A stretch of 33,637 nt of DNA from Candidatus Sherwoodlollariibacterium unditelluris (GTDB lineage Bacteria > Omnitrophota > Gorgyraeia > Gygaellales > Profunditerraquicolaceae), in NCBI GenBank assembly GCA_002771995.1, contig PCRK01000026.1:1-33637 (forward strand), in the 5' to 3' direction. The position numbers and the translations under genes are program-made. This document shows positions 14,000 to 26,735 of this stretch, piece by piece (positions within the stretch are counted from its first letter, which is position 1; every line of letters starts with the position of its first letter). The notes beneath the pieces are model-generated. The model was not told the DNA's origin. It saw only the letters and a program-made list of their open reading frames with translations, and ran no database searches.

Positions 14000-15259
14000 A
14001 TGAAAAGAAGAGTGGTTATCACCGGCATAGGGACTATTTCGCCTAACGGTATAGGTAAAGAAGCTGTTTGGCAGGGGATGTCATCCGGAAAATCGGGGGT
14101 AAAATTAGTCGATGGCTTTGATGTTTCAGTCTTTAATACTAAAATTGCCGCCGAAGTACGTGATTTTAATCCTTTTAAATTAGGGTTAAATCACGAAGAA
14201 GCCATGCGCATGGATAGATATGTGCAGTTTGCTGTAGTCGCGGGGAATATGGCGATTAAAGACAGTAAATTAAATTTTGTAAAAGAGGATCCGCAACATA
14301 TTGGGGTTTCTCTGGCTAATGCCATCTGTGGCACAAAATATATGGAAGAGGAATTTGCCCTCGTAACTGATAGCGGCAAAAAGCCAATTGATCCGTCTTT
14401 AGTCAGGCCGGATCTTTATGATGCGGCAATGTTTAATACGCCTTCAATTGAGTTATCCGCAAAATACGGATTAAAAGGGGTATGCAATACACTTTCCACC
14501 GGCTGTACTGCCGGGACAGATTCTCTCGGGTTTGGCTTAGAGACAATTCAGGACGGCGAACAGGATATTATGATTTGCGGCGCGGCAGAAGCGCCGCTGA
14601 CTCCGATTACTTTCGGCGCATTTGATGTAATTAATGTTTTGTCTGTGCATAACGATGAGCCGCAAAAAGCTTCGCGTCCGTTTGACAATAAACGCGACGG
14701 GTTTGTTTTGGCCGAGGGCGCAGGAATCCTGGTTTTAGAGGAATTAAATCATGCTTTAAAGCGCAATGCCAGAATTTATTGCGAAGTCCTTGGTTTCGGC
14801 ACAAGTTGCAATGCATATCACATGACAGATTTACCTTCAGACGGTAGGGCGATGGAGACTTGTATTTCGCTTGCCTTAAAAGATTCCGGGATAAGCCCTA
14901 AAGAGATAGATTATATTAATGCCCATGGATCATCCACGCGCATGAACGATATCTTCGAGACCAGCGCATATAAGGCGATTTTTGGGGATTACGCCTATAA
15001 GTTGCCTATCAGCTCTTTTAAATCTATGATTGGCCATCCTTTGGCTGCGGCAAATGCCATTGAGCTGACTGTAGTTGCGATGATCTTTGACAAAAACATT
15101 CTTCCTCCCACCATTAATCAGGAAGAAAAAGACCCGCAGTGTGATTTATATTATATCCCCAACGAAGCAATACAAAAAAAAGTAAACACGATTATTAAGA
15201 CCAGCAGCGGTTTTTCAGGGATTCATTCATCTTTGGTTTTAAGGAGATATGATGGATAA
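14000..15259 (+). CDS. Type II PKS ketosynthase alpha (KSalpha)
   Basis: Active site LSTGCTAG (KSalpha-type STGCT), SRPFD, DGFVLAEG, YINAHGSST, KSMIGH, SGFSG; overlaps a CLF-like gene. Confidence 0.9.
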   Translation: MKRRVVITGIGTISPNGIGKEAVWQGMSSGKSGVKLVDGFDVSVFNTKIAAEVRDFNPFKLGLNHEEAMRMDRYVQFAVVAGNMAIKDSKLNFVKEDPQHIGVSLANAICGTKYMEEEFALVTDSGKKPIDPSLVRPDLYDAAMFNTPSIELSAKYGLKGVCNTLSTGCTAGTDSLGFGLETIQDGEQDIMICGAAEAPLTPITFGAFDVINVLSVHNDEPQKASRPFDNKRDGFVLAEGAGILVLEELNHALKRNARIYCEVLGFGTSCNAYHMTDLPSDGRAMETCISLALKDSGISPKEIDYINAHGSSTRMNDIFETSAYKAIFGDYAYKLPISSFKSMIGHPLAAANAIELTVVAMIFDKNILPPTINQEEKDPQCDLYYIPNEAIQKKVNTIIKTSSGFSGIHSSLVLRRYDG

Positions 15260-16481
15260 GATTGCGGTTACGGGTATAGGTGTCGTTGCGCCTTCCGGAA
15301 TTGGCAAGCGTCAGTTCTGGGCGAATATTAAAAGCGGCCGCTCTTTTATTAAAGAAATCACCCGTTTTGATTCCTCTAAATACCCATCGCGTATCGCCGG
15401 CCAGATTGATGACTTAGAAAAATATAGCCACATATCAGAGAGGCTCTTAAAGAAGATTGATGCCTTTTCGCATATGGCGCTGATTGCTTCGGAAATGGCC
15501 TTGCAGGATGCTGGTATTGATATTAAGAATGAGGATCCCAGCCTGATCGGGATTTTCTTAGGCAATGCCATCGGCGGTTGGCTTTATGCCGAGACAGAAT
15601 TAAGGGACCTCTATTTAGAAGGCCGTGAAGGAGTTTCCCCTTATATGGCTTCCGCGTGGTTTCCCGCGGCCCCGCAAGGGCAGGTTTCTATTTATTACGG
15701 GATAAAAGGATTTTCTAAAACTGTAGTCGCGGACAGGGCCAGTTCTTTAATGGCTTTAGGCTATGCCCGGAAAGTTTTAGCTAAAAATAAATTAAATATG
15801 ATTTTAGCCGGAGGCATGGAAGCGCCGGTTACGCCCTACGCTTTATTATGCTGTAATACTTATGGCGCGCTTTCCAAGAATAATAATGACCCGGAACATG
15901 CTTACCGGCCATTTGATAAAAAGCGCGACGGTTTTGTTTTAGGGGAGGGGGCAGGTATCGTGGTTATGGAGAGTGTTAACCGGGCTAAGCAAAGAGGAGC
16001 TAATATTTTAGGCTATATCAGCGGTTACGCCACTACCTGCGACGCGGTGGATAGAATAAATTGTGCTCCGGATGGTAAAGAACTGGCCTGGACAATAAAT
16101 AACGCGTTCTCTGAAGCCAAAGTAAACCCGGGGGAGATTGATTATATCAGTTTAGATGGTTTAGCTATTGATTTATGGGATAATTCTGAAATTAACGCCC
16201 TGAAATTAGTTTTCGGGCATAGGTTAAAAGATATTCCTTTAAGCTGCCCGAAATCAATGTTTGGAAATTTGTTGGGGGCATCAGGGGTAGTGGATATGAT
16301 TACTACTATTTTAGCTATGGAGCATAGCCTTGTTCCGATTACCTTAAACTTGGACGCGCCCAGTGTAAATGGGCTAAATTATGTTACCAAAGAAGCTAAA
16401 GAATACAAAATAGATAAAGCCTTAATTATTTCCCGCGGTCGTGGCGGGATTAACGCGGTACTGGTGGTTGAAAAAGCTTAA
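15249..16481 (+). CDS. Type II PKS chain-length factor (KSbeta/CLF)
   Basis: KS fold lacking the catalytic Cys and His residues (VVADRASS, ISLDG, KSMFGNL); CLF-type PYMASAWFPAAPQGQVSI and YRPFD; terminal SRGRGGINA. Confidence 0.88.
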   Translation: MMDKIAVTGIGVVAPSGIGKRQFWANIKSGRSFIKEITRFDSSKYPSRIAGQIDDLEKYSHISERLLKKIDAFSHMALIASEMALQDAGIDIKNEDPSLIGIFLGNAIGGWLYAETELRDLYLEGREGVSPYMASAWFPAAPQGQVSIYYGIKGFSKTVVADRASSLMALGYARKVLAKNKLNMILAGGMEAPVTPYALLCCNTYGALSKNNNDPEHAYRPFDKKRDGFVLGEGAGIVVMESVNRAKQRGANILGYISGYATTCDAVDRINCAPDGKELAWTINNAFSEAKVNPGEIDYISLDGLAIDLWDNSEINALKLVFGHRLKDIPLSCPKSMFGNLLGASGVVDMITTILAMEHSLVPITLNLDAPSVNGLNYVTKEAKEYKIDKALIISRGRGGINAVLVVEKA

Positions 16482-16491
16482 GGAGGATTTA

Positions 16492-17952
16492 ATGAAGATT
16501 TTATTTGTTATGCCAAAAGTCGGTGCTTGGGCAACGCATGGGATACATCGTTCTCCAAATCAGTTATATGCGCATTGGGCAGCCTATATTCGGGAGAGAG
16601 GTTATACAGATGTGGCGGTAATTGACGGAAAAGCTGATCAGATACCTATGGAGCAACTGGTTGAACAGGTGAAGCTTAAAGCACCTGATATTGTGGTAAT
16701 GGGTGAGCAGTTACACGGTTATGGCGGATACGGGGTTTTACGACATTTTAAAGATGCTGCCATTGGGATTAAAAAAGCGCTGCCTAAGACAAAAATAATT
16801 CTCGGTGGGTTATGGTATTCGGCAATGCCTGTGCCTACATTAGAGGAGAATCCTGCAGTTGACTTTGTGGTTATGGGTGAAGAGGAATCTTTTGGAGATT
16901 TAATCGAAGCAATAGATAAAAACAAGCCCCTTAAAGATGTGGCTGGCGTTACTTCCCGTGTCGATGGGCAGATTGTTATGGGGCCGCATAAGCCGCTGAT
17001 GCAAGATTTAGATAAACTCCCTTTACCGGCTTATGATTTGTTCCCGATGGATAAATATGTAGGTCATACTTATTGGAAACCATTTGTAGATATGGTTACC
17101 TCCAGAGGTTGCCCTTCGGCGTGCACCTTTTGTTATGAGTGGGACCAGTTTGACCCACGCTCTCCTTCAGATTTCTTAAAATGGCGGGCTAAATCTCCGG
17201 AAAGAGTTATGGAAGAGTTGAATCTTTTGCATAAAAAATACGGGGTTAAAGTCGTGGTTATTCAGGATGACAATTTTAATGTCGACCCTAAAAGAGTGCA
17301 GAAGTTCTGCAAACTTAAAAAGGCGTCGAATAATCCGATTAAATGGGTATCTTTAGGACGCGCGATTGACTGGGTTAATTGTGAATCAATCCTGCCGCTG
17401 ATGAAGGAGAATGGTTTATTCATGGGTGTTTTTGGCATTGAGGTTACAACTCAGTCAGAGCTTAAGAAAATCGCTAAAGGCATCACTATTGATCAGATTA
17501 AGAGAACCATAGAGATCTTGCGCAAAAATGATATCGCGATTGTCGCGGATATTATGATGGGTTTTGATTATGACACTGAAGAGATTATCAAGCAGCGTTT
17601 TGAGTTTACTGATCAGGTTGATCCGGATATTTTGTGGGTGGGCTATGTTACTCCTGCCCCGAATTCGCCGATGTGGAGAATTGCTTTAAAGAAAAACTGG
17701 ATTGATCCTAAGAAGGTAGATTTTAGCCAATGGGATTTTCTCCACCCGGTAATCCCTACGGATCATCTTACTACGGAAGATCTCGGTCGGCTTGGCTCAT
17801 GGTGTATGCGCGAATTTTTCTCTAAACCCGGGAGAATCAACCGGATTATGGAGAGCAACTTTGACCCGTTAGCCAAACTTTGTTTTAAGGATGTTATGGA
17901 TGGTATCAATAAATGGGAAGCAGCCGCAACTAAAGGTGAAGTACAAATCTAG
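16492..17952 (+). CDS. Cobalamin-binding radical SAM enzyme (BchE/class B methylase-like); probable start at ATG 16492
   Basis: AAGGAGG precedes ATG 16492. N-terminal B12-binding-type domain (IILGG, DFVVMGE), DLDKLPLP, TSRGCPSACTFC (CxxxCxxC), DDNF. Confidence 0.9.
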   Translation: MKILFVMPKVGAWATHGIHRSPNQLYAHWAAYIRERGYTDVAVIDGKADQIPMEQLVEQVKLKAPDIVVMGEQLHGYGGYGVLRHFKDAAIGIKKALPKTKIILGGLWYSAMPVPTLEENPAVDFVVMGEEESFGDLIEAIDKNKPLKDVAGVTSRVDGQIVMGPHKPLMQDLDKLPLPAYDLFPMDKYVGHTYWKPFVDMVTSRGCPSACTFCYEWDQFDPRSPSDFLKWRAKSPERVMEELNLLHKKYGVKVVVIQDDNFNVDPKRVQKFCKLKKASNNPIKWVSLGRAIDWVNCESILPLMKENGLFMGVFGIEVTTQSELKKIAKGITIDQIKRTIEILRKNDIAIVADIMMGFDYDTEEIIKQRFEFTDQVDPDILWVGYVTPAPNSPMWRIALKKNWIDPKKVDFSQWDFLHPVIPTDHLTTEDLGRLGSWCMREFFSKPGRINRIMESNFDPLAKLCFKDVMDGINKWEAAATKGEVQI

Positions 17953-17980
17953 GGACTGTCCCCGGAGGGGACTGTCCCTA
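17950..17980. repeat. Tandem GGGACTGTCCC palindromes (REP-like); third copy at 22537-22549
   Basis: TAGGGACTGTCCCC-GGA-GGGGACTGTCCCTA. Confidence 0.8.
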
Positions 17981-17996
17981 AAATAGGGAGGTTGCT

Positions 17997-18233
17997 ATGG
18001 AGGTAAAGACTAAGATCAAAGAAGTGTTAGTCAATTTATTAAAGGTAAAACTTGATGAATTAAAGGATGAGTTGTCTTTGCAGGATTCAATCGGCGTAGA
18101 TTCAACCGAAATGGTAGAGTTGGTTATCGCGCTTGAGAAGGCTTTTAACGTTAAGCTTTTCCCGAAAGAGGTTACCAAATTTTCTGCTATTAACGATATT
18201 GAGAAAGTTATTAATTCTAAATCCGGAAAATAA
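17997..18233 (+). CDS. Acyl carrier protein
   Basis: 78 aa; phosphopantetheinylation motif IGVDSTEMVEL; GGGAGG Shine-Dalgarno sequence. Confidence 0.93.
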   Translation: MEVKTKIKEVLVNLLKVKLDELKDELSLQDSIGVDSTEMVELVIALEKAFNVKLFPKEVTKFSAINDIEKVINSKSGK

Positions 18234-19036
18234 TGAGAATTATTGATTTAAGTTTGCCAATTGACGAGAAGGCCTTTGAGGTGCATAAGGTTGATATCGA
18301 GCGCGTAACTCACAAGGCCGGTATTGATAAATTTAATCGGATAATAATGGGTAAGACGTTATCAGGTAAGTTAAGCTACCTTTTGGGTAAACGCATACTT
18401 AGGCCTTGTGATGTCCCGGACGGTGAATTCTTATCGCTGGAAATAGTGCATTCGCCTGTCCATGTCGGAACCCACCTGGATTATTCTTTTCATTACGGTT
18501 CTAAGTCAGAAGGCAGGGCTGCAAAAACCGCCGATGAAATCCCGCTTGAATATTGCTATCAGTATGGAGTGCGCTTGGATTTAAGGCATAAAAAACCAGC
18601 AGAGGCGATAACTGCCGCAGATATGGAAGCGGCATTAAAAAGGATTAATTATAATCTGAAGCCGCTGGATATTGTATTACTCTGGACAGGCGCGGATAAA
18701 TTTTACGGGAGGCCCGAATATTTTACTGATTATCCGGGCGTAGATACTTCGGCGATAGATTACCTTTTAGATTGCGGGATCAAGGTTTTCGGCACCGATA
18801 CCATGGGTATAGATCGGCCGTATAAATTTATGCTCAAAGAATTCTTAGATTCCAAAGATCCTCGTAAATTCTATCCAGCGCATTTTTACGGCAGAAAGCG
18901 TGAGTTTATTCACATCGAGAGGCTTGGCAGGTTGGAAAATTTGCCTGCTGCAGCCGGCTTTAAAATTATTTGTTTTCCGGTACGCATTAGGCAGACCGGC
19001 GCCGCCTGGTCGAGAGTGGTTGCTCTTTTAGATTAA
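18233..19036 (+). CDS. Metal-dependent cyclase family (PF04199-type), DpsY/OxyN/ZhuJ-like polyketide ring cyclase
   Basis: IIDLSLPI, HVGTHLDYSFHYG (HxGTHxD), GTDTMGID, HIERL, GAAWSRVVA; adjacent to the ACP gene. Confidence 0.85.
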   Translation: MRIIDLSLPIDEKAFEVHKVDIERVTHKAGIDKFNRIIMGKTLSGKLSYLLGKRILRPCDVPDGEFLSLEIVHSPVHVGTHLDYSFHYGSKSEGRAAKTADEIPLEYCYQYGVRLDLRHKKPAEAITAADMEAALKRINYNLKPLDIVLLWTGADKFYGRPEYFTDYPGVDTSAIDYLLDCGIKVFGTDTMGIDRPYKFMLKEFLDSKDPRKFYPAHFYGRKREFIHIERLGRLENLPAAAGFKIICFPVRIRQTGAAWSRVVALLD

Positions 19037-19039
19037 CAG

Positions 19040-19112
19040 TTTAAGCGCTTCCTGTCACGGGGCGCTTCTTGCGCTCACGCGCTGCGAAGCATCTCCGTGC
19101 CACCCGCTTTAA
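19040..19112. other. GC-rich intergenic stem-loop
   Basis: CACGGGGCGCTTC...GAAGCATCTCCGTG imperfect stem between the two cyclase genes; no U-tract directly after it. Confidence 0.5.
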
Positions 19113-19152
19113 GATTTTAATCTAAAAGAGCATAATATTTAAGGAGGGTTAG

Positions 19153-19593
19153 ATGGGACATACTTGCAATGCAATAGTAATAAACGCGCCTTATGATCTG
19201 GTTTTTGATATTTCTAATGATATACCGCGCTGGACGGAATTGTTCGGCGGTGAATATAAGAAGGCAGAGATTATAAGTAAGGAAGGCGACAAAATAACCT
19301 TTCGCCTTACTGACGACGAGGATAAATCTTGGGTATCCTGGCGGCTGCTTTTTAAGGATAAGTATTTTACTTATTCCGAAAGGCATGAGCCAAAGTTTCC
19401 GTTTAAGTATATGAAAATTATTTGGCTCTATACGCCTAAGCCTGAAGGCATTGAGCTGACCTGGATTCAGCATTTTGCAATGGACGATAAAGCTAAATTT
19501 AGCGATGAACAGGTTGAGGGTTTCATCAATAAACACTCTAAAGAAAATTTACTGGTTTTTAAGCAATTAATTGAGAAACAAGTTAAATTATAA
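19153..19593 (+). CDS. TcmN/WhiE-type monodomain polyketide aromatase/cyclase (SRPBCC)
   Basis: HTCNAIVINAPYDLVFDISNDIPRWTELF.EY..AEI...ITFRLT...WVSWR closely follows the TcmN N-terminal pattern; AAGGAGG Shine-Dalgarno sequence. Confidence 0.9.
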   Translation: MGHTCNAIVINAPYDLVFDISNDIPRWTELFGGEYKKAEIISKEGDKITFRLTDDEDKSWVSWRLLFKDKYFTYSERHEPKFPFKYMKIIWLYTPKPEGIELTWIQHFAMDDKAKFSDEQVEGFINKHSKENLLVFKQLIEKQVKL

Positions 19594-19610
19594 AATAGGG
19601 GAGGTTTATA

Positions 19611-20387
19611 ATGAGCGAAAATTTAAAAGGTAAAGTGGCGATCGTTACTGGTGCCAGCCGCGGAATTGGTAAGGCCTTAGCCTGCACTGCGGCAAGCTTA
19701 GGGATTAATTTAACCATTGCCGCTCGCCAAGAAGGGCCCTTGAAGGAGACCGCAGATGAAATCGCCAAGAAATACAAGGTTGAGGTACTCGCGGTTCCTT
19801 GCGATGTTACAAAATTAGAGGATTTGGAAAATCTGGTGAATAAGACTAAGGGAAAGTTCGGCAAGATTGACATTTTGATTAATAACGCCGGAGTATCCTC
19901 GCAATATCCTTTTCAAGAACAGCCGATGGAGGATTTTGAGAGGTTGGCGTATACGAATTACTTAGGTTACGTGCGTTTAATCCGCCTGGTAATCAATGAT
20001 ATGATTAAAAATAAGTCGGGAGCGATTATCAATATGGTTTCAGGGTCAACGCTTTGCGATCCGCTGCCGAGAAACTTTATTGTTTATAGTTCGCTTAAAG
20101 TAGGCTTACGCGCCTTTTCCAAAGGCCTGTTCTGGGAATTGCGTGACCATGGGATTAAGGTTACCTCAATATTGCCCGGGGTAACCGATACGGACTTAAC
20201 CGGCAAATTAAAAGAGATAACCCAGGATACTTCGCGCCTGATGACTACCGAGGCAATTGAAAACGCGGTCAGATTTGCTTTAACCGTTCCGCAAAATGTC
20301 TGCCCTCTGGAGATCGCCGTGATTAACCAGCAGACGCCGTGGACTGCGCCGGTTATACCGTTTAAACAGCAGCACCCGGGGAGATAA
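19611..20387 (+). CDS. Short-chain dehydrogenase/reductase (putative ketoreductase)
   Basis: TGASRGIG, CDVT, INNAG, YSSLK (YxxxK), PGVTDT. Confidence 0.9.
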   Translation: MSENLKGKVAIVTGASRGIGKALACTAASLGINLTIAARQEGPLKETADEIAKKYKVEVLAVPCDVTKLEDLENLVNKTKGKFGKIDILINNAGVSSQYPFQEQPMEDFERLAYTNYLGYVRLIRLVINDMIKNKSGAIINMVSGSTLCDPLPRNFIVYSSLKVGLRAFSKGLFWELRDHGIKVTSILPGVTDTDLTGKLKEITQDTSRLMTTEAIENAVRFALTVPQNVCPLEIAVINQQTPWTAPVIPFKQQHPGR

Positions 20388-20407
20388 CGGTAAAGGACTT
20401 AGGAAAG

Positions 20408-20533
20408 ATCCCTCGCTTAACCACTTGAAAATTTCTACGAAATTTTCTGCGTAAGCTCGGGATAAATTCGCAGACGGCCTCGCGGCCTACAACTTACGTC
20501 ACTATCGTTCCGTAAGTTGTCTGCTCATTTAAA
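20408..20533. repeat. Hairpin (20408-20463) followed by a hairpin-family element (20465-20533)
   Basis: ATCCC...GAAAATTT/AAATTTTC...GGGAT; then AATTC-GCAGAC...CAACTTACG...CGTAAGTT-GTCTGC-TCATTTAAA. Confidence 0.65.
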
Positions 20534-20544
20534 GGAGAGAATAA

Positions 20545-21156
20545 ATGAAAAAGGCTTTAGTTTTTGCGGCAGTGTTGGTTTTAGGATTAGCCGGAGTTTG
20601 CCTTGCCGCGGAGAATAATTTACTGATCGATGATATGGAGAAAGCTGTGGTTGGCGGGCCGCAAGGAACAGTCGATTTTGGCGCAGGGAATGGTTCAGCG
20701 GTAGATGTATCAAATTCAAGCGATATCAAATATTCCGGAGATAGGGCGATTAAGATTTCCTTTAGCGCTATCCCCGGAGGGTATATGTATGTGGCTAAGG
20801 GCGATAAACTTGATGCCAAAAATGCCGGGTGGCAGGTAAGTCCCGCGGATATCAAGTGGGATGAATATAAGGCTATTTCTTTTTATATGTACGGCTCGGA
20901 TTCTAAGGTAAATATCGCTATTGATATAAAAGACAGCGGCAATGAAATATGGCGCTATATTATTCAGGATAATTTCAAGGGCTGGAAGCAGATAATTTGT
21001 AATTTCAGCGATTTTACTGCCCGTTCAGACTGGCAACCGGATAATGCCGAGAAAGACGCTATACTCGCTTTTCCTTTGACAAGTTTCCAATTTGAGCCTT
21101 TACCTGAATCAAAAGGCACAATTTATATCGACAAAGTGGAGTTGGTCAAGAAATGA
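20545..21156 (+). CDS. Secreted CBM11-like carbohydrate-binding domain protein
   Basis: Signal peptide; LLIDDME, WDEYKAISFYMYG, DNFKGWKQI..FSDF, GTIYIDKVEL. Confidence 0.75.
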   Translation: MKKALVFAAVLVLGLAGVCLAAENNLLIDDMEKAVVGGPQGTVDFGAGNGSAVDVSNSSDIKYSGDRAIKISFSAIPGGYMYVAKGDKLDAKNAGWQVSPADIKWDEYKAISFYMYGSDSKVNIAIDIKDSGNEIWRYIIQDNFKGWKQIICNFSDFTARSDWQPDNAEKDAILAFPLTSFQFEPLPESKGTIYIDKVELVKK

Positions 21157-21605
21157 TGAACCCCGTTAGAAATTTTGTTCAAATATTAGATAAGAGTGAT
21201 ATTTCTAACGGGGTGAATAAGAGGGATGTTAAGAATCTAAAGAAGCGCTATCTGATCTGGTTTTATAAGGCAGCCAAAGAAGCACTGGATAAAATTGAAC
21301 GCAAGTTTACTCAAGTTGAGATTGACCGGGTTATTCTTAAAGAATTAAAGAAAGCGGATAAGAAGGTTCCCATTGAAAACTTGGTGCAGCAATTTGAGGA
21401 TTACATAACCAAGAAAGAGCAGGATGGTTTAAGTTTAAAGTATGAAAATAAAAAGTTTAAACCGCATTATGTTTTTTTGATAAAAAAACTTGAGGCAATT
21501 GAGAAGGCCATAACCGTAGAATTAGGCAAGGATGCTTTAAAAGAGATAAAACTTCTCTACGAAATTGAGATGACCGAGCGTATATTAAGGAGCACGGAAC
21601 ATTAA
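21153..21605 (+). CDS. Hypothetical helical protein
   Basis: Translationally coupled at both ends; no recognised motif; the N-terminus contains the repeat-derived NPVRN...ISNGVN. Confidence 0.7.
   Translation: MMNPVRNFVQILDKSDISNGVNKRDVKNLKKRYLIWFYKAAKEALDKIERKFTQVEIDRVILKELKKADKKVPIENLVQQFEDYITKKEQDGLSLKYENKKFKPHYVFLIKKLEAIEKAITVELGKDALKEIKLLYEIEMTERILRSTEH
21160..21214. repeat. 14-bp terminal inverted repeat element with a 27-nt spacer, translated in frame
   Basis: ACCCCGTTAGAAAT-N27-ATTTCTAACGGGGT; the spacer is unrelated to that of the 13370 copy. Confidence 0.9.
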
Positions 21606-22513
21606 TGATTATTGACGCGCATAGCCATTGGCTGCCGGAGGGAATAATCAACAATGCCCATTTTTATCATAAGGGCTGGGGCGATATTGAAGCGCAACTT
21701 AAGATGATGGATGAGGCAGGAATCGATAAGGCGGTTTTGTCATATCCGACTTCTGATGCGCATTTAAAATTGGGAAGTATCTCCGAAGTTGTGCGTATAT
21801 TTAATGATCACATTGGGAAAATTATCAAAAAATATCCGGATAGATTTATTGGTGCCGCAATTTTGCCTATAGATCATGAGCCGGATATGCTTAAAGAGTT
21901 AAAGCGTTCAACAGAAGAATTAGGTTTTAAGGCAATTTCTCTGGCCTCAAGCTATAACGGGGTTTATCTGGATGATACCAGGTTTCTTGGGATATACAAA
22001 ATTGCGCAAAACAAAAACCTTCCTATTTTTGTACATTCGCAGATTGTAAAGCCCATAGGCAGCGAACGCGTGGAAGACCCCTTGCTTACGCCGGTGATCG
22101 AGTATGTTTTTGATACTACAATATGCATAGGCAAACTTTTGATGTCGGATATTTTGCGTGATTACAAAGCAAAGTTAATTTTTGCTTATTTCGGCGGGGT
22201 AATTCCGTTTTTGGCCAATCGTTTTGACGCTACCTATCAGATGCTGCGCGGGATAAATTTTGTCAAAGACTTAAAAGGTAACCCTACGGATTATCTAAAG
22301 AATATTTATGTGGATACTAGCGGCGATAAAGGCAAGGCAAATTTTCAAGCGGCACTGGAGTTTTTAGGTTCTAAGCATATCTTATGGGGTAGTGACTGGC
22401 CGGCAAAAAAAGATATCGCAGGCAGCATTCAAGCAATCAAAGATTTAGATATATCCGCAGAAGATAAGAATAATATTTTAGGCGGTAATTTACAAGCAAT
22501 ATTAGCTCTTTAA
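21605..22513 (+). CDS. Amidohydrolase_2 family protein (ACMSD/aromatic acid decarboxylase-like)
   Basis: IIDAHSH, MDEAGIDKAVLS, PDRFIG, PIFVHS, YVDT, WGSDWP, ILGGN. Confidence 0.82.
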   Translation: MIIDAHSHWLPEGIINNAHFYHKGWGDIEAQLKMMDEAGIDKAVLSYPTSDAHLKLGSISEVVRIFNDHIGKIIKKYPDRFIGAAILPIDHEPDMLKELKRSTEELGFKAISLASSYNGVYLDDTRFLGIYKIAQNKNLPIFVHSQIVKPIGSERVEDPLLTPVIEYVFDTTICIGKLLMSDILRDYKAKLIFAYFGGVIPFLANRFDATYQMLRGINFVKDLKGNPTDYLKNIYVDTSGDKGKANFQAALEFLGSKHILWGSDWPAKKDIAGSIQAIKDLDISAEDKNNILGGNLQAILAL

Positions 22514-22577
22514 GAATTTTGCGTTTGTGACGTTGCAGGGACTGTCCCTAAGGTTTGCTATTACAAAGGAGTAATAA

Positions 22578-23327
22578 ATGCAAATGGTTAAGGATGTGCA
22601 TTTAACAGGAAAAGATTTGACCCAGATGGTGCAGTTAAGGCCGGAAGACGTGGGAAAATATGCGATTGTGCCCGGGCCAAGAGATAGGCTTGACGTTTTA
22701 TTAAAGAAATTTGAGAATCCGGTGAAGAACTTTACCTTTATGGAATATTCTATGTATACCGGGACAGTGGAAGGAATAAAGGTAACTGCGATTAATGGTG
22801 GAAGATTTTCAACCGATACCTCAATTACTACTGAGGTTATGTGTAATGCGCAAATTCAGAATATTATTCGCGTAGGCACTTGTGGTTCGTTAGACGAAAA
22901 TATCAAAATTGGCGATTTGTTTGTGGTTGATGAGGTTATCCGTGGCGACGGAGTTACGCCGTATTATGTAGATAAGAATTTTAAGACCATAGCTGATAAA
23001 AAAATCGCTGATACTTTATATGAAGTTGCTAAAGGCATGGGTTTAACCATTCATCGCGGGAAAGTCTGGACTACGGATGCGCTTTTACGCGAAACAAGAG
23101 AGATTGTAGAAGCCAAGCGTAAAGAAGGTGCCAAGGCAGTAGATATGGTTTCTGCGACCATGTTAACTATTGCGCAGACTTACAATATCAAGGCCGGCTC
23201 AATCTTAGCAGTAAGCGATAATGTTATTACCGGCGAGATGGGCTTTATGAATCCATTATATTATATGGCAGAGTCAAATATTTTAAAAATAGCTTTAGGA
23301 ACAGTGAAAAAGTTGGAAGGAAAATGA
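22578..23327 (+). CDS. Nucleoside phosphorylase (PNP_UDP_1 family) with atypical motifs
   Basis: IIRVGTCGSL, IRGDGVT..Y, WTTDALLRE, AVDMVSA, LAVSDN. Confidence 0.85.
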   Translation: MQMVKDVHLTGKDLTQMVQLRPEDVGKYAIVPGPRDRLDVLLKKFENPVKNFTFMEYSMYTGTVEGIKVTAINGGRFSTDTSITTEVMCNAQIQNIIRVGTCGSLDENIKIGDLFVVDEVIRGDGVTPYYVDKNFKTIADKKIADTLYEVAKGMGLTIHRGKVWTTDALLRETREIVEAKRKEGAKAVDMVSATMLTIAQTYNIKAGSILAVSDNVITGEMGFMNPLYYMAESNILKIALGTVKKLEGK

Positions 23328-24250
23328 AATTTTCTCCGTTATTCTGGCCGATTCAGCTAAAAGGAAATATCATTTATATTTTAGATGAGACACTTCTGCC
23401 GCATAAACTTTCCTATATAAAGGTGCGTAATTACAAAGAGGCATGCCGCGCCATTAAAGAGATGAAGACGCGCGCTGTGGGCCAGGTTTTGTTAGTGATG
23501 TATATATTCTTGCAACTAATTAAGCAGAATAAGCAGAGAGATTTGCTTAAGGTTGCTCGTGCCATAAATTCTACCCGGCCCACGCTCTCTTTTAAGTATT
23601 TGACTGATATGGTTATAGGTTGGTCAAAGGGTAAGGCGTCATTAGAAAAGTGTATCTTAGGATTCTTAGAGGGTTTAAAATATAGCCGGATGAAGCAGGC
23701 GGAAGAGGCAAGCAAGCTGTTAAAAGACGGCGATGCCATTCTCACGCATTGTAATGTCAGCGGTCTGATGCCTTTAATCGGAGAATTCGCCAAGAAACAA
23801 GGCAAGAGAATAAGTTTTTTTGCCACCGAAACGCGGCCGTATTTACAAGGCTCGCGCCTGACTGCTTGGGAATTGCAAAGGGCAGGGTTGGGTGTTACCA
23901 TAATTACCGATGGTATGGTTGCGGCAGTGATGTCGCAGCATAAGGTTAATAAAGTTATCGTCGGCGCAGACCATCTTACGCTTAATGGAGATATCGCTAA
24001 TAAAATCGGGACATATCAGATTGCGATTACGGCGAAATATTTCAAGATTCCTTTTTATGTCCTATGTCCTCCTGCGTCAGGCTTAAAGAGAGGAAGGGAT
24101 ATAAAAATTGAGATCCGGCCGGACAAGGAGATGTTAGAATATCAGGGTTTGCGCCTTGCGCCAAAAGTAGCGAAAGGTTATTACCCGGCATTTGATGTGA
24201 CACCGGCAAAATTGATTACTAAACACATTCATTTGGAGATTAAAAGATGA
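23324..24250 (+). CDS. mtnA: Methylthioribose/5-deoxyribose-1-phosphate isomerase-like (MtnA/eIF2B family)
   Basis: TRPT, THCN, ETRPYLQGSRLTAWEL, GADH..NGDIANKIGTY, PAFDVTP. At 308 aa it is short and divergent. Confidence 0.82.
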   Translation: MKFSPLFWPIQLKGNIIYILDETLLPHKLSYIKVRNYKEACRAIKEMKTRAVGQVLLVMYIFLQLIKQNKQRDLLKVARAINSTRPTLSFKYLTDMVIGWSKGKASLEKCILGFLEGLKYSRMKQAEEASKLLKDGDAILTHCNVSGLMPLIGEFAKKQGKRISFFATETRPYLQGSRLTAWELQRAGLGVTIITDGMVAAVMSQHKVNKVIVGADHLTLNGDIANKIGTYQIAITAKYFKIPFYVLCPPASGLKRGRDIKIEIRPDKEMLEYQGLRLAPKVAKGYYPAFDVTPAKLITKHIHLEIKR

Positions 24251-25251
24251 TTTTTAGCAAAGAGAGAGCCCTAAAGAATGAAATTATCAAGGTCGGCCTG
24301 CGTCTCTATCAGACTGGTTTGGCTGTGGCTAAGTCCGGGAATATCAGCGCCTGCCTCAACGATAATAAACATATCCTTATTACTGCCAGCGGAACATCTT
24401 TAGGGAGCTTAAAACACAAAGATATAGTGAAAGTGGACCTAGATTCAGGAAAAGCCTTCGGCGATGTTAAGCCAAGTTCAGAGTTACTGCTGCACGTCTT
24501 AGTTTATAAGAATTTTAAAGCCAAAACCGTTATCCATTGTCACCCGCCTTTGATTAACGGATATTTCGCGGTTAGCTCTGATTTAAGAGCCCTAACCTTT
24601 GAGACTAAATTTTATTTAGGAAATGTTCCTGTTGTCGAGCAGGATACCCCGACCGTAACTAAACCGGAATTAGTAATTAGCGCCTTAAAGACTAACAATT
24701 TAGTTGTGCTTGAAAATCACGGCACAATAGCTATAGCGGATAAATTTTCTGATGCCTTAAGTTTAACTGAAGCTTTGGAAGAAGCAGTGCGCACCGCAGC
24801 AGTAGCCAGGATTTTTAAGAAAGAAGTACTGGATGATTTAGATAAGGCGATAAAATCAGACTTAACCGGCAATTTGAGCTTACCTATGTTTTCCCGCGAG
24901 CACATACAGGCAATCGTAGATTTGGTAAATAAAGATGAACTCATTGCCCAAAAAGGTAAAGAGCTGGATTTAACCGTAAAACTGGCCATAAAGCTCGACG
25001 GAAGCGATAAATGCTATAAGTTTAATTTTGAAAAAGGTAAAATCGCGCGTTTAGATTTTGACAGCGACGCGCCTTTTGTTATTTCAGCACCGGCTGAAGT
25101 ATGGGAACAGGTATTTTTAGGCAAGCTCGATTCATTTGTAGCCGTAACGCAGGGTAAGATGAAATTATCCGGACAGCTAGGACTTCTTTCTAAATGGTAT
25201 GTCCCGTTTACCCGTCTGTTTGCCTTATTTAGGGAAGTTAAAATAAAATGA
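24247..25251 (+). CDS. Class II aldolase/adducin domain fused to a C-terminal SCP2 sterol-carrier-like domain
   Basis: GNIS, ITASG, PSSELLLH, IHCHPP, LENHG; C-terminal WEQVFLGKLDSFVAVTQGKMKLSGQL (SCP2 pattern). Confidence 0.82.
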   Translation: MIFSKERALKNEIIKVGLRLYQTGLAVAKSGNISACLNDNKHILITASGTSLGSLKHKDIVKVDLDSGKAFGDVKPSSELLLHVLVYKNFKAKTVIHCHPPLINGYFAVSSDLRALTFETKFYLGNVPVVEQDTPTVTKPELVISALKTNNLVVLENHGTIAIADKFSDALSLTEALEEAVRTAAVARIFKKEVLDDLDKAIKSDLTGNLSLPMFSREHIQAIVDLVNKDELIAQKGKELDLTVKLAIKLDGSDKCYKFNFEKGKIARLDFDSDAPFVISAPAEVWEQVFLGKLDSFVAVTQGKMKLSGQLGLLSKWYVPFTRLFALFREVKIK

Positions 25252-26735
25252 TGCCGCTTTATCCGCTATATATAAACGGAAGATTTATTGAAACTAGCGA
25301 ACGGCAAAATGTGCTTAATCCGTCTACGGGTAAAGTAATCGCTCAAGCTTGCCTGGCTAAGGATTCGGATGTGGATCTGGCTATAGCCAGCGCACGGGAG
25401 GCCTTTGATAAAGGTAGTTGGCCTAAGCTGCCTTTAGATGAGCGCAAGAAATTTATCTTTAAGATTGCTCAAGGAATCCTCAATAAGGCGGGGGATTTAG
25501 CAAAGTTGGAGACGGAAAATGCCGGTAAGCCCATTAAGGAAACCACCTTTATGGATGTGCCTTCAGCTGCCAAGGCTTTTGAGTATGTGGCTAATAATTT
25601 TGAAAGCTATCTGGTTAGTGAAAACTTGAATATTTCAGAAGAGGCCAAGGCAAAGTTATCCCGCGAGCCTATGGGTGTAGTGGTTTTGATTATTCCCTGG
25701 AATTATCCTTTGCTAATTGCTTCTTGGAAACTAGCTTCAGCGCTTGCCGCAGGCAATACTGTAGTCTTAAAGCCGTCCAGCTTGACCTCTTTGACTGCGT
25801 TTGAGTTAGGTAAAATTATCCACCAGGCAGGTTTACCCGCGGGAGTGGTTAATATCGTAAACGCGAGCGGCACAAAGATAGGCGAGAAACTCTGTTCTGA
25901 TAAAAGAGTGGATATGGTTTCTTTTACCGGGAGTAACGAGGTAGGTAAACATATCTTAGAGTATTCTTCCAAGAATGTTAAGAAATTAATTATGGAACTG
26001 GGTGGAAAGTCCGCAAGCTTAATCTTTTCCGATGTTGATATAGATATGGTAGTGAACAGCTCTCTTTGCTCCATATTTTTAAATCAGGGCCAGATGTGTA
26101 CGGCCATGTCGCGCATATTTGTGCAGGATAGCCTGTATAATAAATTTGTAGCTAATTTTGTTGAGAAGGCCCAGCGCATAAAGCTTGGGGTAGCTAGTAA
26201 CCATGAGACTCAGATGGGCCCTTTAATTACCGATAGCCAGCGTAAGAAAGTCATTGTCTACTTAGAGAAAGCCAAGGCGGAAGGGGCAAAGATATTATGC
26301 GGAGGAAAGATTCCTCAGGCCCCGGAATTAAAGAACGGTTATTTCTTTGAGCCTACGGTTATAACCGGGGTAAATCCGCATATGCATATTTTTAAGGAAG
26401 AAGTATTTGGGCCCGTAGCTATAGTCGGTAAATTTTCTAGTGCTGAAGAAGCAGTAGAATTAGCTAATGATTCGGATTTTGCTTTAGCCAGTTGTATCTG
26501 GAGTAGGGATTTAAGCCTAGCCGAGGGTTTAGCTAAAAGAATTAATGCCGGGACTATCTGGATTAATACTTATGGCATGTTTTATAATCGGGCCCCTTAC
26601 GGAGGGTTTAAGCAAAGCGGGTTTGGCAAGGAGCTTGGTAAAGAAGGATTCTTAGAGTATACCCGTCTTAAGAATGTGGTGCTGGATCAATCTCCTGATG
26701 CAAAGCCGCTGGTTAATTATTGGTACGGATTCTAA
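25248..26735 (+). CDS. NAD(P)-dependent aldehyde dehydrogenase
   Basis: IPWNYP, LKPS, FTGS, MELGGKS, NQGQMC, EEVFGP, GGFKQSG. Confidence 0.95.
   Translation: MMPLYPLYINGRFIETSERQNVLNPSTGKVIAQACLAKDSDVDLAIASAREAFDKGSWPKLPLDERKKFIFKIAQGILNKAGDLAKLETENAGKPIKETTFMDVPSAAKAFEYVANNFESYLVSENLNISEEAKAKLSREPMGVVVLIIPWNYPLLIASWKLASALAAGNTVVLKPSSLTSLTAFELGKIIHQAGLPAGVVNIVNASGTKIGEKLCSDKRVDMVSFTGSNEVGKHILEYSSKNVKKLIMELGGKSASLIFSDVDIDMVVNSSLCSIFLNQGQMCTAMSRIFVQDSLYNKFVANFVEKAQRIKLGVASNHETQMGPLITDSQRKKVIVYLEKAKAEGAKILCGGKIPQAPELKNGYFFEPTVITGVNPHMHIFKEEVFGPVAIVGKFSSAEEAVELANDSDFALASCIWSRDLSLAEGLAKRINAGTIWINTYGMFYNRAPYGGFKQSGFGKELGKEGFLEYTRLKNVVLDQSPDAKPLVNYWYGF

What the first reader, a model, noticed from the sequence alone, without database searches (positions are those of the whole stretch)
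16492..26735. Candidate new chemistry: radical-SAM adenosylation then phosphorylase-isomerase-aldolase-ALDH trimming to install a C2 acid on a hydrophobic polyketide
Seen: four overlapping genes (22578-26735) encode a nucleoside phosphorylase, an MtnA-like isomerase, a class II aldolase-SCP2 fusion and an ALDH, in the same run as the PKS and the radical SAM enzyme. Established: this reaction order converts 5'-X-adenosine to X-acetaldehyde plus DHAP in the DHAP shunt (X=H or SCH3), and with an ALDH gives fluoroacetate in Streptomyces cattleya. Radical SAM enzymes such as HpnH and MqnE add the 5'-deoxyadenosyl radical to substrates, and HpnG then removes adenine. Inference: here X could be the aromatic polyketide, giving aryl-CH2-CHO and then aryl-CH2-COOH from SAM ribose C5'/C4'. 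The SCP2 fusion and the divergent active sites favour a bulky substrate. The simpler alternative is disposal of 5'-deoxyadenosine made by a B12 methyltransferase.
Basis: inference. Interest (0 to 1): 0.88.

Follow-up and report, generated by a model that had tools for sequence, protein, structure and literature searches.

The report
Nucleoside-trimming module in PKS cluster
Four genes that copy a known route for breaking down SAM by-products are a fixed part of a polyketide gene cluster in uncultured Omnitrophota bacteria, which suggests (but does not prove) that they build or trim a pathway intermediate and do not merely recycle waste.

Summary
Genes at 22578-26735 encode a PNP/UDP-type phosphorylase, an MtnA paralogue, a class II aldolase-SCP2 fusion and a hydrolytic-type ALDH, joined by ATGA overlaps, downstream of KSalpha/KSbeta, a B12-binding radical SAM enzyme, an ACP-like gene, cyclases and a KR.

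The window comes from a 1.35 Mb Omnitrophota genome that also has canonical MtnA and MtnP elsewhere. In a sample of 151 Omnitrophota genomes, the fusion aldolase and the KSbeta orthologue occur in the same 23. The phosphorylase occurs in 22 of those 23 and in 0 of the other 128. The gene set survives three different gene orders.

So this is a cluster-dedicated, diverged DHAP-shunt-like module, not a stray salvage operon.

The central chemistry remains untested: adenosylation of the polyketide by the radical SAM enzyme. No B12-binding radical SAM enzyme that I know of adenosylates its substrate (recalled). A 33%-identical fusion homologue stands alone in another phylum. Disposal of 5'-deoxyadenosine remains a serious rival.

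Verdict: a new variant of a known kind, of moderate to high interest.

The parts
11455..11970 (+). PadR-family regulator. Sits next to the AMP ligase in other gene orders.
   Evidence: Pfam PadR 46.9 bits. Orthologue beside the AMP ligase in L060 and L062.
12076..12351 (+). Conserved 91-aa protein of unknown family. Travels with the radical SAM and ApbA genes.
   Evidence: No Pfam match. Orthologues lie between B12-rSAM and ApbA in L059, L063 and L064, and beside ApbA in L065.
12348..13355 (+). ApbA/PanE-like NAD(P)H ketoreductase.
   Evidence: Pfam ApbA 104.2 and ApbA_C 70.6 bits. TIGR00745 168.6 bits. Conserved in rearranged clusters.
13357..13998 (+). Protein with two TIGR04076 domains in tandem. 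Function unknown.
   Evidence: TIGR04076 98.9 bits in 2 stretches. Orthologues in L032, L059 and L065.
14000..15259 (+). Ketosynthase alpha with a Cys-His-His triad.
   Evidence: Pfam ketoacyl-synt and its C-terminal domain. Alignment shows C169 and both His.
15249..16481 (+). Ketosynthase beta (CLF-like). Active-site Cys replaced by Arg/Lys, not Gln.
   Evidence: Pfam. Arg in 17 and Lys in 4 of 21 sequences.
16492..17952 (+). B12-binding-domain radical SAM enzyme. The only SAM-cleaving enzyme conserved in the cluster.
   Evidence: Radical_SAM 75.9 and B12-binding 37.0 bits. BchE 213.5 and HpnJ 159.7 bits, both below their cut-offs. CxxxCxxC motif visible. 87-97% identical across gene-order A loci.
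17997..18233 (+). Acyl carrier protein (inferred).
   Evidence: 78 aa with a DS motif. Conserved after KSbeta or the radical SAM gene in related loci. Not scanned against a family library.
18233..19036 (+). Cyclase (PF04199).
   Evidence: Pfam Cyclase 100.2 bits.
19153..19593 (+). SRPBCC polyketide cyclase/dehydrase.
   Evidence: Polyketide_cyc2 27.4 and Polyketide_cyc 25.9 bits.
19611..20387 (+). SDR ketoreductase.
   Evidence: adh_short 172.4 bits.
21605..22513 (+). Amidohydro_2 protein. The family includes aromatic-acid decarboxylases and lactonases (recalled).
   Evidence: Pfam 81 bits. Conserved in all three gene orders.
22578..23327 (+). Diverged purine-nucleoside-phosphorylase-like enzyme. 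Not MtnP.
   Evidence: PNP_UDP_1 119.3 bits. Best NCBIfam match is uridine phosphorylase, 109.5 bits (cut-off 280.3); MTAP is not among the 15 families matched. Active-site comparison. Found in 22 of the 23 cluster genomes and 0 of the other 128.
23324..24250 (+). MtnA paralogue (aldose-1-P/ketose-1-P isomerase), 308 aa.
   Evidence: IF-2B 186.8 bits. TIGR00524 198.4 bits, above its cut-off of 185.85. TIGR00512 221.7 bits, below its cut-off of 279. 39% identical to the genome's canonical MtnA. Cys and Asp kept.
24247..25251 (+). Class II (metal) aldolase fused to an SCP2 domain.
   Evidence: Pfam. The His97/His99/His158 and Glu79 columns are invariant in 49 sequences. AF2 model: pLDDT 91.7, pTM 0.82. 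Foldseek top hits are YgbL, FucA and DrdA.
25248..26735 (+). NAD(P)+ aldehyde dehydrogenase of the hydrolytic type.
   Evidence: Aldedh 553.6 bits. ELGGK (Glu250) and GQMC (Cys284) motifs present.
29308..30810 (+). AMP-forming acyl ligase. Lies beside the module in every gene order seen.
   Evidence: AMP-binding 281.6 bits. Directly after ALDH in L019. Directly before the phosphorylase in L060, L062, L064 and L065.

Best explanation
The four genes are a diverged, pathway-dedicated copy of the DHAP-shunt reaction order with an aldehyde dehydrogenase added. They are an integral, co-inherited part of a type II PKS / B12-binding radical SAM cluster that is conserved across one class-level lineage of Omnitrophota.

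Most likely mechanism:
1. The phosphorylase removes the purine from a cluster-specific 5'-substituted 5'-deoxyadenosine, giving a 5-substituted ribose-1-phosphate.
2. The MtnA paralogue isomerises this to the ribulose-1-phosphate.
3. The metal aldolase cleaves it to DHAP plus a 2-substituted acetaldehyde. The SCP2 domain may hold a hydrophobic part of the substrate or product.
4. The ALDH oxidises the aldehyde to the acid.
5. The co-conserved AMP ligase activates that acid.

The most likely source of the 5'-substituted nucleoside is the cluster's only SAM-cleaving enzyme, the B12-binding radical SAM protein, adding the 5'-deoxyadenosyl radical to an sp2 carbon of a pathway intermediate. This follows the logic of the HpnH/HpnG and futalosine pathways.

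What is shown: gene content, the catalytic residues, the paralogy, and the strict co-occurrence with the PKS. What is inferred: the direction of the pathway, the identity of the 5' substituent, and the adenosylation step.
For: 1. Domain order and ATGA overlaps.

2. Catalytic residues are kept.
- Isomerase Cys and Asp.
- Aldolase three His plus Glu, invariant in 49 sequences.
- ALDH Glu and Cys.
- Phosphorylase Gly33, Arg37, Arg98 and Thr/Ser101, with an invariant SDN.

3. The genome already has a canonical MtnA (427.3 bits on TIGR00512, cut-off 279) and a canonical MtnP (318.7 bits on TIGR01694, cut-off 274.85) at housekeeping loci. The cluster copies are therefore extra paralogues; the two isomerases are 39% identical.

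4. Co-occurrence in a sample of 151 Omnitrophota genomes.
- The fusion aldolase is in 23 genomes, and the KSbeta orthologue (at least 54% identity) is in the same 23.
- The phosphorylase is in 22 of those 23 and in 0 of the other 128.
- A second MtnA-like copy is listed in 22 of the 23.

5. All 34 of 34 related loci with at least 6 kb upstream carry PKS-side genes.

6. The gene set survives three different gene orders. In one of them the phosphorylase lies about 11 kb from the other three genes, with the PKS genes in between.

7. The AMP ligase abuts the module in every order.

8. At least 15 same-class genomes have a canonical MtnA but no class II aldolase at all. Canonical salvage in this lineage therefore does not need this aldolase.

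9. In E. coli, relief of 5'-dAdo/MTA toxicity needs only the nucleosidase, not the rest of the shunt (PMC10986504, passages). MtnP alone should therefore suffice for detoxification here.

10. All three sugar-handling enzymes differ from their canonical forms.
- Phosphorylase: Arg to Met and Glu to Val.
- Isomerase: shortened N-terminal domain.
- Aldolase: added SCP2 domain.

11. No fluorinase/DUF62-type SAM enzyme and no HpnH above cut-off were found in the genome.
Against: - No substrate was tested.
- I know of no B12-binding radical SAM enzyme that adenosylates its substrate (recalled). HpnH and MqnE belong to other subfamilies. This protein scores best on BchE and HpnJ, and its nearest solved relative is the diol dehydratase AprD4.
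- A full-length homologue of the fusion (33% identity, labelled Thermodesulfobacteriota by its source) lies among housekeeping genes, with no PKS, phosphorylase, MtnA or ALDH within 10 kb. The aldolase-SCP2 architecture is therefore not specific to this cluster. Only one context was examined, seen on two contigs.
- Another relative of the aldolase domain is fused directly to a NirJ/AhbD-like radical SAM/SPASM enzyme. That fits by-product disposal.
- The phosphorylase is of the DeoD/UP type, and its N-terminal His8 is conserved in 40 of 41 orthologues. This could be the 5'-OH ligand of ordinary nucleosides.
- The 23 cluster-bearing genomes are related to one another, so the co-occurrence counts overstate independence.
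Confidence: 0.42

Rival explanations
1. By-product disposal. The B12-binding radical SAM enzyme is a methyltransferase or an oxidising/cyclising enzyme that releases 5'-deoxyadenosine. The module is a cluster-embedded DHAP shunt that converts 5'-dAdo (or MTA) to adenine, DHAP and acetaldehyde. The ALDH gives acetate, which the AMP ligase may recycle, perhaps as an acetyl starter, because KSbeta lacks the priming Gln.
For: - The reaction order is identical to the DHAP shunt and to DrdK/I/A (PMC6079011 and PMC10986504, passages).
- DrdA is among the top structural matches.
- This is the only class II aldolase in the genome. In 21 of the 23 cluster genomes the fusion is the only PF00596 match.
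- The genome has 17 radical SAM matches.
- A relative of the aldolase domain is fused to a radical SAM/SPASM enzyme.
- A distant fusion homologue stands alone in another phylum.
- KSbeta has Arg/Lys in place of Gln.
Against: - A 1.35 Mb genome keeps MtnP and MtnA as well as these paralogues.
- The module follows the PKS cluster, not radical SAM content. It is in 0 of the 128 genomes without the cluster.
- Detoxification needs only the first step (PMC10986504).
- The conserved changes in the phosphorylase and the isomerase, the SCP2 domain and the dedicated ALDH are left unexplained.
- At least 15 same-class genomes run a canonical MtnA without any class II aldolase.
Confidence: 0.3
2. Supply of a building block from an ordinary or small-substituent nucleoside. 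Adenosine or inosine (X = OH) would give ribose-1-P, then ribulose-1-P, then DHAP plus glycolaldehyde, then glycolate. MTA or a C5'-methylated 5'-dAdo would give a short substituted acetate. The AMP ligase loads this acid on the ACP as a non-acetate starter.
For: - The phosphorylase is DeoD/UP-like, with a conserved His8 and a purine-type SDN motif.
- There is a weak match to the haloarchaeal ribulose-1-phosphate aldolase (62.2 bits).
- The AMP ligase is always beside the module.
- KSbeta lacks the Gln that primes with acetate (the role of this Gln is recalled).
- Starter loading by an AMP ligase is known in type II PKSs (EncN, recalled).
Against: - The isomerase is an MtnA-type paralogue, not the ribose-1,5-bisphosphate isomerase type (121.6 bits, cut-off 314.1).
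- The SCP2 domain is unexplained.
- The ribose-binding Glu of the phosphorylase is lost.
- This reading gives the radical SAM enzyme no role.
Confidence: 0.12
3. The 'aldolase' does not act as an aldolase. Class II aldolase-fold enzymes also act as dehydratases (MtnB), epimerases (AraD), decarboxylases (OtnC, PhtC) or dioxygenases. The module would then make a different sugar-phosphate-derived product, or run in the synthetic direction.
For: - The top structural match is YgbL/OtnC, a decarboxylase.
- NCBIfam matches to OtnC (86 bits) and MtnB (58-65 bits) are all below their cut-offs, as are the aldolase matches.
- Aldol cleavage by DrdA is reversible (PMC6079011).
Against: - The best family matches are aldolases (NF006413, 108.8 bits).
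- An ALDH translationally coupled immediately downstream fits an aldehyde product.
- The phosphorylase-isomerase-aldolase order is the known cleavage route.
Confidence: 0.1

Closest known systems
DHAP shunt (MtnP, or MtnN plus MtnK; MtnA; Ald2) of Rhodospirillum rubrum and ExPEC E. coli
   Same: Same three-step order: base removal giving a ribose-1-phosphate, aldose/ketose isomerisation by an MtnA-family enzyme, then class II aldolase cleavage to DHAP plus an aldehyde (PMC10986504, passages).
   Different: - The phosphorylase is DeoD/UP-like, not MtnP.
- The isomerase is a shortened paralogue that scores below the MtnA equivalog cut-offs.
- The aldolase carries an SCP2 domain.
- An ALDH is coupled downstream.
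- The genes are embedded in, and co-inherited with, a PKS cluster, while canonical MtnP and MtnA sit elsewhere in the genome.
5-Deoxyribose disposal DrdK/DrdI/DrdA of Bacillus thuringiensis
   Same: An isomerase plus a class II aldolase in an operon. DrdA (6btd, 6btg) is among the top structural matches at 26-27% identity. The products are DHAP plus acetaldehyde (PMC6079011, abstract and passages).
   Different: Here a phosphorylase replaces the kinase, an SCP2 domain and an ALDH are added, and the context is a PKS cluster.
Fluoroacetate pathway of Streptomyces cattleya (fluorinase, 5'-FDA phosphorylase, isomerase, aldolase, aldehyde dehydrogenase)
   Same: A 5'-X-5'-deoxyadenosine made on purpose from SAM is trimmed to X-CH2-CHO and then X-CH2-COOH. 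[quoted passage not shown] The ALDH step is recalled.
   Different: No fluorinase/DUF62-type enzyme was found in this genome. The only candidate maker of the nucleoside is a radical SAM enzyme.
HpnH/HpnG in hopanoid side-chain synthesis
   Same: A radical SAM enzyme adds 5'-deoxyadenosyl to an olefin, and a PNP homologue then removes adenine from the lipid-linked adenosine (PMC13459092, passages).
   Different: - No HpnH above cut-off in the genome.
- The phosphorylase scores 50.8 bits on HpnG (cut-off 187.1).
- Hopanoids keep the ribose carbons, whereas here an isomerase and an aldolase would cut them down to C2.
Futalosine pathway (MqnE, MqnB, MqnC, MqnD)
   Same: 5'-Deoxyadenosyl is added to a vinyl group and the base is removed. 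Only part of the ribose carbon is kept in the final aromatic product (the MqnE reaction is described in PMC13459092; the rest is recalled).
   Different: Futalosine hydrolase scores only 32.6 bits (cut-off 124.7). The radical SAM enzyme is of a different class. The known pathway has no phospho-sugar steps.

Membership tests
DHAP shunt / 5-deoxyribose disposal | MtnP (TIGR01694), or an MtnN-type enzyme, acting on MTA/5'-dAdo | tested here: not met
   The cluster phosphorylase matches 15 NCBIfam families, all below their cut-offs. The best is uridine phosphorylase at 109.5 bits (cut-off 280.3). MTAP is not among them. The genome's true MtnP is on contig C26.
DHAP shunt / 5-deoxyribose disposal | MtnA-family isomerase with catalytic Cys and Asp | tested here: inconclusive
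   The subfamily model TIGR00524 is passed (198.4 bits, cut-off 185.85). The equivalog TIGR00512 is not (221.7 bits, cut-off 279). Cys and Asp are conserved. The N-terminal domain is shortened.
DHAP shunt / 5-deoxyribose disposal | Class II metal aldolase with three His ligands and a catalytic Glu | tested here: met
   PF00596 115.7 bits. The columns are invariant in 25 and in 49 sequences. The fold matches FucA and DrdA.
DHAP shunt / 5-deoxyribose disposal | Substrate is 5'-dAdo or MTA, and the product is acetaldehyde or methylthioacetaldehyde | not testable with these tools
   Needs enzyme assays.
HpnH/HpnG-type adenosylation and base removal | HpnH-family radical SAM enzyme and HpnG-family phosphorylase | tested here: not met
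   Best HpnH match in the genome is 44.8 bits (cut-off 225.05), and it lies outside the cluster. HpnG scores 50.8 bits (cut-off 187.1).
Futalosine pathway | MqnB futalosine hydrolase (TIGR03664) | tested here: not met
   32.6 bits (cut-off 124.7). MqnE, MqnA and MqnD were not searched.
B12-binding (class B) radical SAM enzymes | N-terminal B12-binding domain plus a radical SAM core with CxxxCxxC | tested here: met
   PF02310 37.0 bits (cut-off 32.1) and PF04055 75.9 bits. The CPSACTFC motif is in the translation. Whether the protein binds cobalamin cannot be tested here. The nearest solved relative, AprD4, is a diol dehydratase.
BchE / HpnJ equivalogs | Score above the curated equivalog cut-off | tested here: not met
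   BchE 213.5 bits (cut-off 481.35) and HpnJ 159.7 bits (cut-off 577.6).
Aromatic type II PKS | KSalpha with Cys-His-His, a Cys-less KSbeta, an ACP and cyclases | tested here: met
   The ACP is inferred from its motif and position only.
Aromatic type II PKS | Gln at the KSbeta (CLF) active-site position, for decarboxylative priming (recalled) | tested here: not met
   Arg in 17 and Lys in 4 of 21 orthologues.
Fluorinase-type 5'-X-adenosine synthesis | SAM_HAT (PF01887) enzyme | tested here: not met
   No match in the genome, which is 94.8% complete.

The most novel reading that the evidence does not exclude
A B12-binding-domain radical SAM enzyme adds the 5'-deoxyadenosyl radical to a polyketide or other hydrophobic pathway intermediate. 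A dedicated phosphorylase, MtnA paralogue, aldolase-SCP2 and ALDH then cut the adduct back to a -CH2-COOH group plus DHAP. The net result is a carboxymethylation that uses C5'/C4' of the ribose of SAM. The AMP ligase then activates the new acid for ring closure or conjugation. This would be a third, mechanistically distinct use of radical adenosylation after hopanoids and futalosine, and the first in polyketide biosynthesis.
Probability: 0.2. Interest if true: 0.9.

Novelty: new variant of a known kind. Interest (0 to 1): 0.62.

Why it matters
If the module is biosynthetic, it shows that DHAP-shunt chemistry, known as salvage, has been recruited into a polyketide pathway. In the boldest reading, SAM can serve as a donor of a two-carbon acid through radical adenosylation.

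The module also marks a conserved, lineage-wide and wholly uncharacterised gene cluster in Omnitrophota, a phylum with no cultured model. The genome is small (1.35 Mb), so keeping about 20 kb of cluster implies an important product.

Even the salvage reading would be a clear case of a biosynthetic cluster carrying its own by-product recycling set.

The searches of the held paper library found nothing on an aldolase-SCP2 fusion or on this module. Omnitrophica KS-CLF pairs are only catalogued (PMC10132072, passages).

Tried and rejected
Loss of the phosphorylase in a subclade. In 11 related loci the phosphorylase seemed to be missing. This was an artefact of the 10 kb flank. In 5 of 5 such genomes tested, an orthologue (41-46% identity) lies further upstream on the cluster's contig; in one of the five it is split between that contig's end and a second contig. 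I rejected the idea.

Loss of the 5'-OH-binding His. HMMER aligned the His of the Streptococcus uridine phosphorylase to Met17. But a His8 conserved in 40 of 41 orthologues sits in a motif like that of E. coli uridine phosphorylase (the E. coli motif is recalled). I dropped the claim.

A novel quinone pathway. No UbiA-family prenyltransferase was found in the genome. I did not pursue this further, and nothing supports it.

Fluorinase-type origin of the nucleoside. No PF01887 match.

Structure search. The AF2 model was good, but Foldseek only returned generic class II aldolase-fold enzymes at 20-29% identity. This does not discriminate between substrates. I could not inspect coordinates, so I did not examine how the SCP2 cavity is oriented.

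Context of distant fusion homologues. Two alignment queries were not usable. A single-protein scan with P0139 found nothing. The scan with P0313 gave one context on two contigs. The contexts of the relatives labelled Binatota and Deltaproteobacteria could not be reached.

Not done:
- A phylogeny of MtnA paralogues against canonical copies.
- A complex-prediction job.
- Read mapping for expression.
- A search for cobalamin uptake or synthesis genes.

Supplementary files of papers were not opened. The supplements of PMC10132072 may list these Omnitrophica clusters.

Full report
**Observation.** The window is contig C81 of a 1.35 Mb genome in 190 contigs, 94.8% complete. Related loci place it in Omnitrophota.

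On the + strand, ORFs 22578-23327, 23324-24250, 24247-25251 and 25248-26735 are joined by ATGA start/stop overlaps. They encode:
- a PNP_UDP_1 protein (119.3 bits);
- an IF-2B/MtnA-family protein (186.8 bits);
- a class II aldolase (115.7 bits) with a C-terminal SCP2 domain (27.5 bits, cut-off 21.3);
- an aldehyde dehydrogenase (553.6 bits).

Upstream in the same run are:
- a PadR regulator and a conserved 91-aa protein;
- an ApbA/PanE-like reductase and a tandem TIGR04076 protein;
- KSalpha and KSbeta;
- a B12-binding-domain radical SAM enzyme;
- a 78-aa ACP-like ORF;
- a PF04199 cyclase, an SRPBCC cyclase and an SDR;
- two genes found only in gene order A, and an Amidohydro_2 protein.

Downstream are a PlsC-like acyltransferase, a DUF748 protein, an unknown protein, an AMP ligase, RlmN and a GDSL lipase.

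**What the four proteins are.**
- The phosphorylase is not MtnP. All 15 of its NCBIfam matches are below their cut-offs. The best are uridine phosphorylase (109.5 bits, cut-off 280.3) and DeoD-type PNP (95.7 bits, cut-off 230). HpnG scores 50.8 and futalosine hydrolase 32.6.
- I compared the phosphorylase with E. coli uridine phosphorylase and 40 orthologues.
  - It keeps Gly33, Arg37, Arg98 and Thr/Ser101, which form the phosphate site.
  - It keeps an invariant Ser-Asp-Asn where DeoD enzymes have their catalytic Asp (recalled).
  - It lacks the uracil-binding loop.
  - It has Met where the neighbouring subunit's Arg48 binds phosphate (39 of 41).
  - It has Val where Glu198 binds the ribose hydroxyls (41 of 41).
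  - An N-terminal His8 is conserved (40 of 41), so I do not claim that the 5'-OH ligand is lost.
- The isomerase passes the MtnA subfamily model (TIGR00524, 198.4 bits, cut-off 185.85) but not the equivalog (TIGR00512, 221.7 bits, cut-off 279). It keeps the Cys and Asp that align to the catalytic pair of B. subtilis MtnA (residue roles recalled). It is about 45 residues shorter than the canonical copy, with gaps in the N-terminal domain.
- The aldolase keeps three His and the Glu in all 49 aligned fusion proteins. Its AF2 model is confident (pLDDT 91.7, pTM 0.82). Its aldolase domain matches YgbL/OtnC, FucA and the 5-deoxyribulose-1-phosphate aldolase DrdA about equally, at 26-28% identity.
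- The ALDH has the ELGGK Glu and the GQMC Cys of hydrolytic ALDHs.

**Is the module a stray salvage operon?** No.
- The genome has a canonical MtnA on contig C60, next to thiL and tsaE (TIGR00512 427.3 bits). It is 39% identical to the cluster copy.
- The genome has a canonical MtnP on contig C26, next to proC and ileS (TIGR01694 318.7 bits, cut-off 274.85).
- The cluster aldolase is the only PF00596 match in the genome.
- The fusion protein recovered 51 species-level loci from genome contigs, most titled Omnitrophota, at 65-82% identity.
  - All 34 of 34 loci with at least 6 kb upstream carry PKS-side genes, and 30 of those 34 show the radical SAM gene.
  - The other 17 loci have less than 6 kb upstream. 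Three of them show a PKS-side gene, and 14 are too short to tell.
- In an evenly drawn sample of 151 Omnitrophota genomes:
  - 23 have a fusion-length class II aldolase;
  - the same 23 have a KSbeta orthologue at 54-100% identity;
  - 22 of them, and 0 of the other 128, have the phosphorylase. The exception, G002, has its cluster split over short contigs;
  - 22 of them are listed with a second, cluster-type IF-2B match, and all 23 have the canonical MtnA.
- These 23 genomes span 10 family-level groups but are related to one another, so the counts are not independent.

**Rearrangements.** Three gene orders exist.
- Order A is that of the window.
- Order B (for example L065) reads: AMP ligase, phosphorylase, 91-aa protein, ApbA, TIGR04076, KSalpha, KSbeta, ACP, cyclases, MFS transporter, SDR, radical SAM, Amidohydro_2, class IV aminotransferase, MtnA-like, a short IF-2B C-terminal-domain protein, aldolase-SCP2 (the ALDH that follows in other order-B loci such as L032 lies beyond the stretch fetched for L065).
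- Order C (G147, G089, G137) reads: PadR, AMP ligase, phosphorylase, MtnA-like, short IF-2B protein, aldolase-SCP2, ALDH, radical SAM, 91-aa protein, ApbA, then the PKS genes.

The apparent loss of the phosphorylase in 11 order-B loci was an artefact of the flank length. All 5 of 5 such genomes tested have it upstream on the cluster's contig; in one it is split across a contig end. The same gene set therefore stays together through reshuffling, and the AMP ligase always abuts the module. This is the strongest evidence that the module, the radical SAM enzyme, the ligase and the PKS work together.

**Why generic salvage is the weaker reading.**
- At least 15 genomes of the same class have a canonical MtnA but no class II aldolase at all. 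Canonical salvage in this lineage therefore does not depend on such an aldolase.
- The own genome has 17 radical SAM matches, yet the module follows the PKS cluster alone.
- In E. coli, protection from 5'-dAdo and MTA needs only the nucleosidase, not the later shunt steps (PMC10986504, passages). MtnP already provides that step here.
- All three sugar-handling enzymes carry conserved departures from their canonical forms.

- The radical SAM enzyme has a B12-binding domain and scores best, below the cut-offs, on BchE and HpnJ. Its nearest solved relatives are AprD4, TokK and CysS.
- The known adenosylating enzymes HpnH and MqnE are of other types (PMC13459092, passages). No HpnH above cut-off is present.
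- The aldolase-SCP2 architecture is wider than this cluster.
  - Of the 150 library representatives listed, 20 are full-length fusions only 32-46% identical to the nearest locus I held.
  - One Atlas cluster of such fusions is commonest in Binatota.
  - A homologue labelled Thermodesulfobacteriota, 33% identical over its full length, lies among housekeeping genes. Its neighbours are an FdhE-like protein, metallo-beta-lactamase-fold proteins, an M17 peptidase, a phosphoglucomutase and a small radical SAM protein. No PKS, phosphorylase, MtnA or ALDH gene lies within 10 kb. Only one context was examined, seen on two contigs.
- A relative of the aldolase domain is fused to a NirJ/AhbD-like radical SAM/SPASM enzyme. 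That fits by-product handling.

**Most likely mechanism.**
- I commit, at about 0.42, to a pathway-dedicated trimming route. A cluster-specific 5'-substituted 5'-deoxyadenosine is phosphorolysed, isomerised and cleaved to DHAP plus a 2-substituted acetaldehyde. This is oxidised to the acid, which the neighbouring AMP ligase adenylates.
- The nucleoside most probably arises from the only SAM-cleaving enzyme of the cluster. No fluorinase-type enzyme is present.
- The specific version in which the substituent is the aromatic polyketide itself I put at about 0.2.
- KSbeta has Arg/Lys in place of the priming Gln. This keeps open a variant in which the acid is the PKS starter unit.
- The rivals are 5'-dAdo disposal (0.3), a small building block from an ordinary nucleoside (0.12), and non-aldolase chemistry (0.1).

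**Comparison with the known, and novelty.**
- The module works like the DHAP shunt, the Drd pathway and the fluoroacetate route. It fails the membership tests for MtnP, the MtnA equivalog, HpnG, HpnH and MqnB.
- The held literature only catalogues KS-CLF pairs in 'Candidatus Omnitrophica' (PMC10132072, passages) and reports ladderane-type BGC calls in Omnitrophota MAGs (PMC9902471, passages).
- Searches for an aldolase-SCP2 fusion, for an MtnA paralogue in PKS clusters, and for adenosylated polyketides found nothing relevant.
- I rate it a new variant of a known kind. It would be categorically new only if adenosylation of a pathway intermediate is shown.

Noticed in passing
window 16492-17952 and orthologues in L006-L050: The B12-binding radical SAM protein is the most conserved protein of the cluster. 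It is 87-97% identical across gene-order A loci, where KSbeta is 67-83% and the aldolase fusion 66-82% identical.
   Followed up: partly
window 15249-16481: KSbeta has Arg (17) or Lys (4) of 21 orthologues at the active-site Cys position, not the Gln of classical chain-length factors. Both catalytic His are replaced by Asp.
   Followed up: partly
L062:18597-19124, L065:16557-17000, L059:13041-13529, L064:13871-14497: In gene orders B and C, a short protein (147-208 aa ORFs) matching only the C-terminal domain of IF-2B/MtnA sits between the MtnA paralogue and the aldolase. The Pfam scores are 33.2 bits and 20.0 bits (cut-off 22.4) for the two copies scanned. The window lacks it.
   Followed up: partly
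L065:14829-15641 and the same position in L029, L033, L036, L039: Order-B clusters carry a class IV aminotransferase / PabC-like gene (Aminotran_4, 186.8 bits) between Amidohydro_2 and the MtnA paralogue. An MFS transporter lies between the SRPBCC cyclase and the SDR in many clusters.
   Followed up: partly
window 12076-12351 and 13357-13998: A 91-aa protein with no Pfam match, and a protein made of two TIGR04076 domains, are conserved cluster members of unknown role. The small protein stays beside the radical SAM and ApbA genes after rearrangement.
   Followed up: no
protein P0167 (551 aa): A class II aldolase domain 36-37% identical to the cluster's is fused to a NirJ/AhbD-like radical SAM/SPASM enzyme. 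This natural fusion links the aldolase subfamily to radical SAM chemistry. Its genomic context could not be fetched.
   Followed up: partly
own genome G000: No UbiA-family prenyltransferase was found in this 94.8%-complete genome. The genome may therefore make no prenylated quinone. Whether the polyketide could serve as a redox carrier was not examined.
   Followed up: no
phylum sample, e.g. G008:C43:3675-5151, G142:C90:28861-30380: In other Omnitrophota families (f27, f30, f32), a short stand-alone class II aldolase-fold gene lies directly beside the canonical MtnA. This looks like a conventional MtnA-MtnB or MtnA-Ald2 pair.
   Followed up: no
window 32649-33416 (- strand): A 255-aa ORF with a weak Terminase_5/HTH match (22.5 bits) at the window's end, on the opposite strand. 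It could be a mobile-element or phage remnant.
   Followed up: no
window 20545-21605: A CBM_11-like protein (68.4 bits) with a hydrophobic N-terminus that looks like a signal peptide, and a 150-aa protein of no known family, sit inside the cluster only in gene order A.
   Followed up: no
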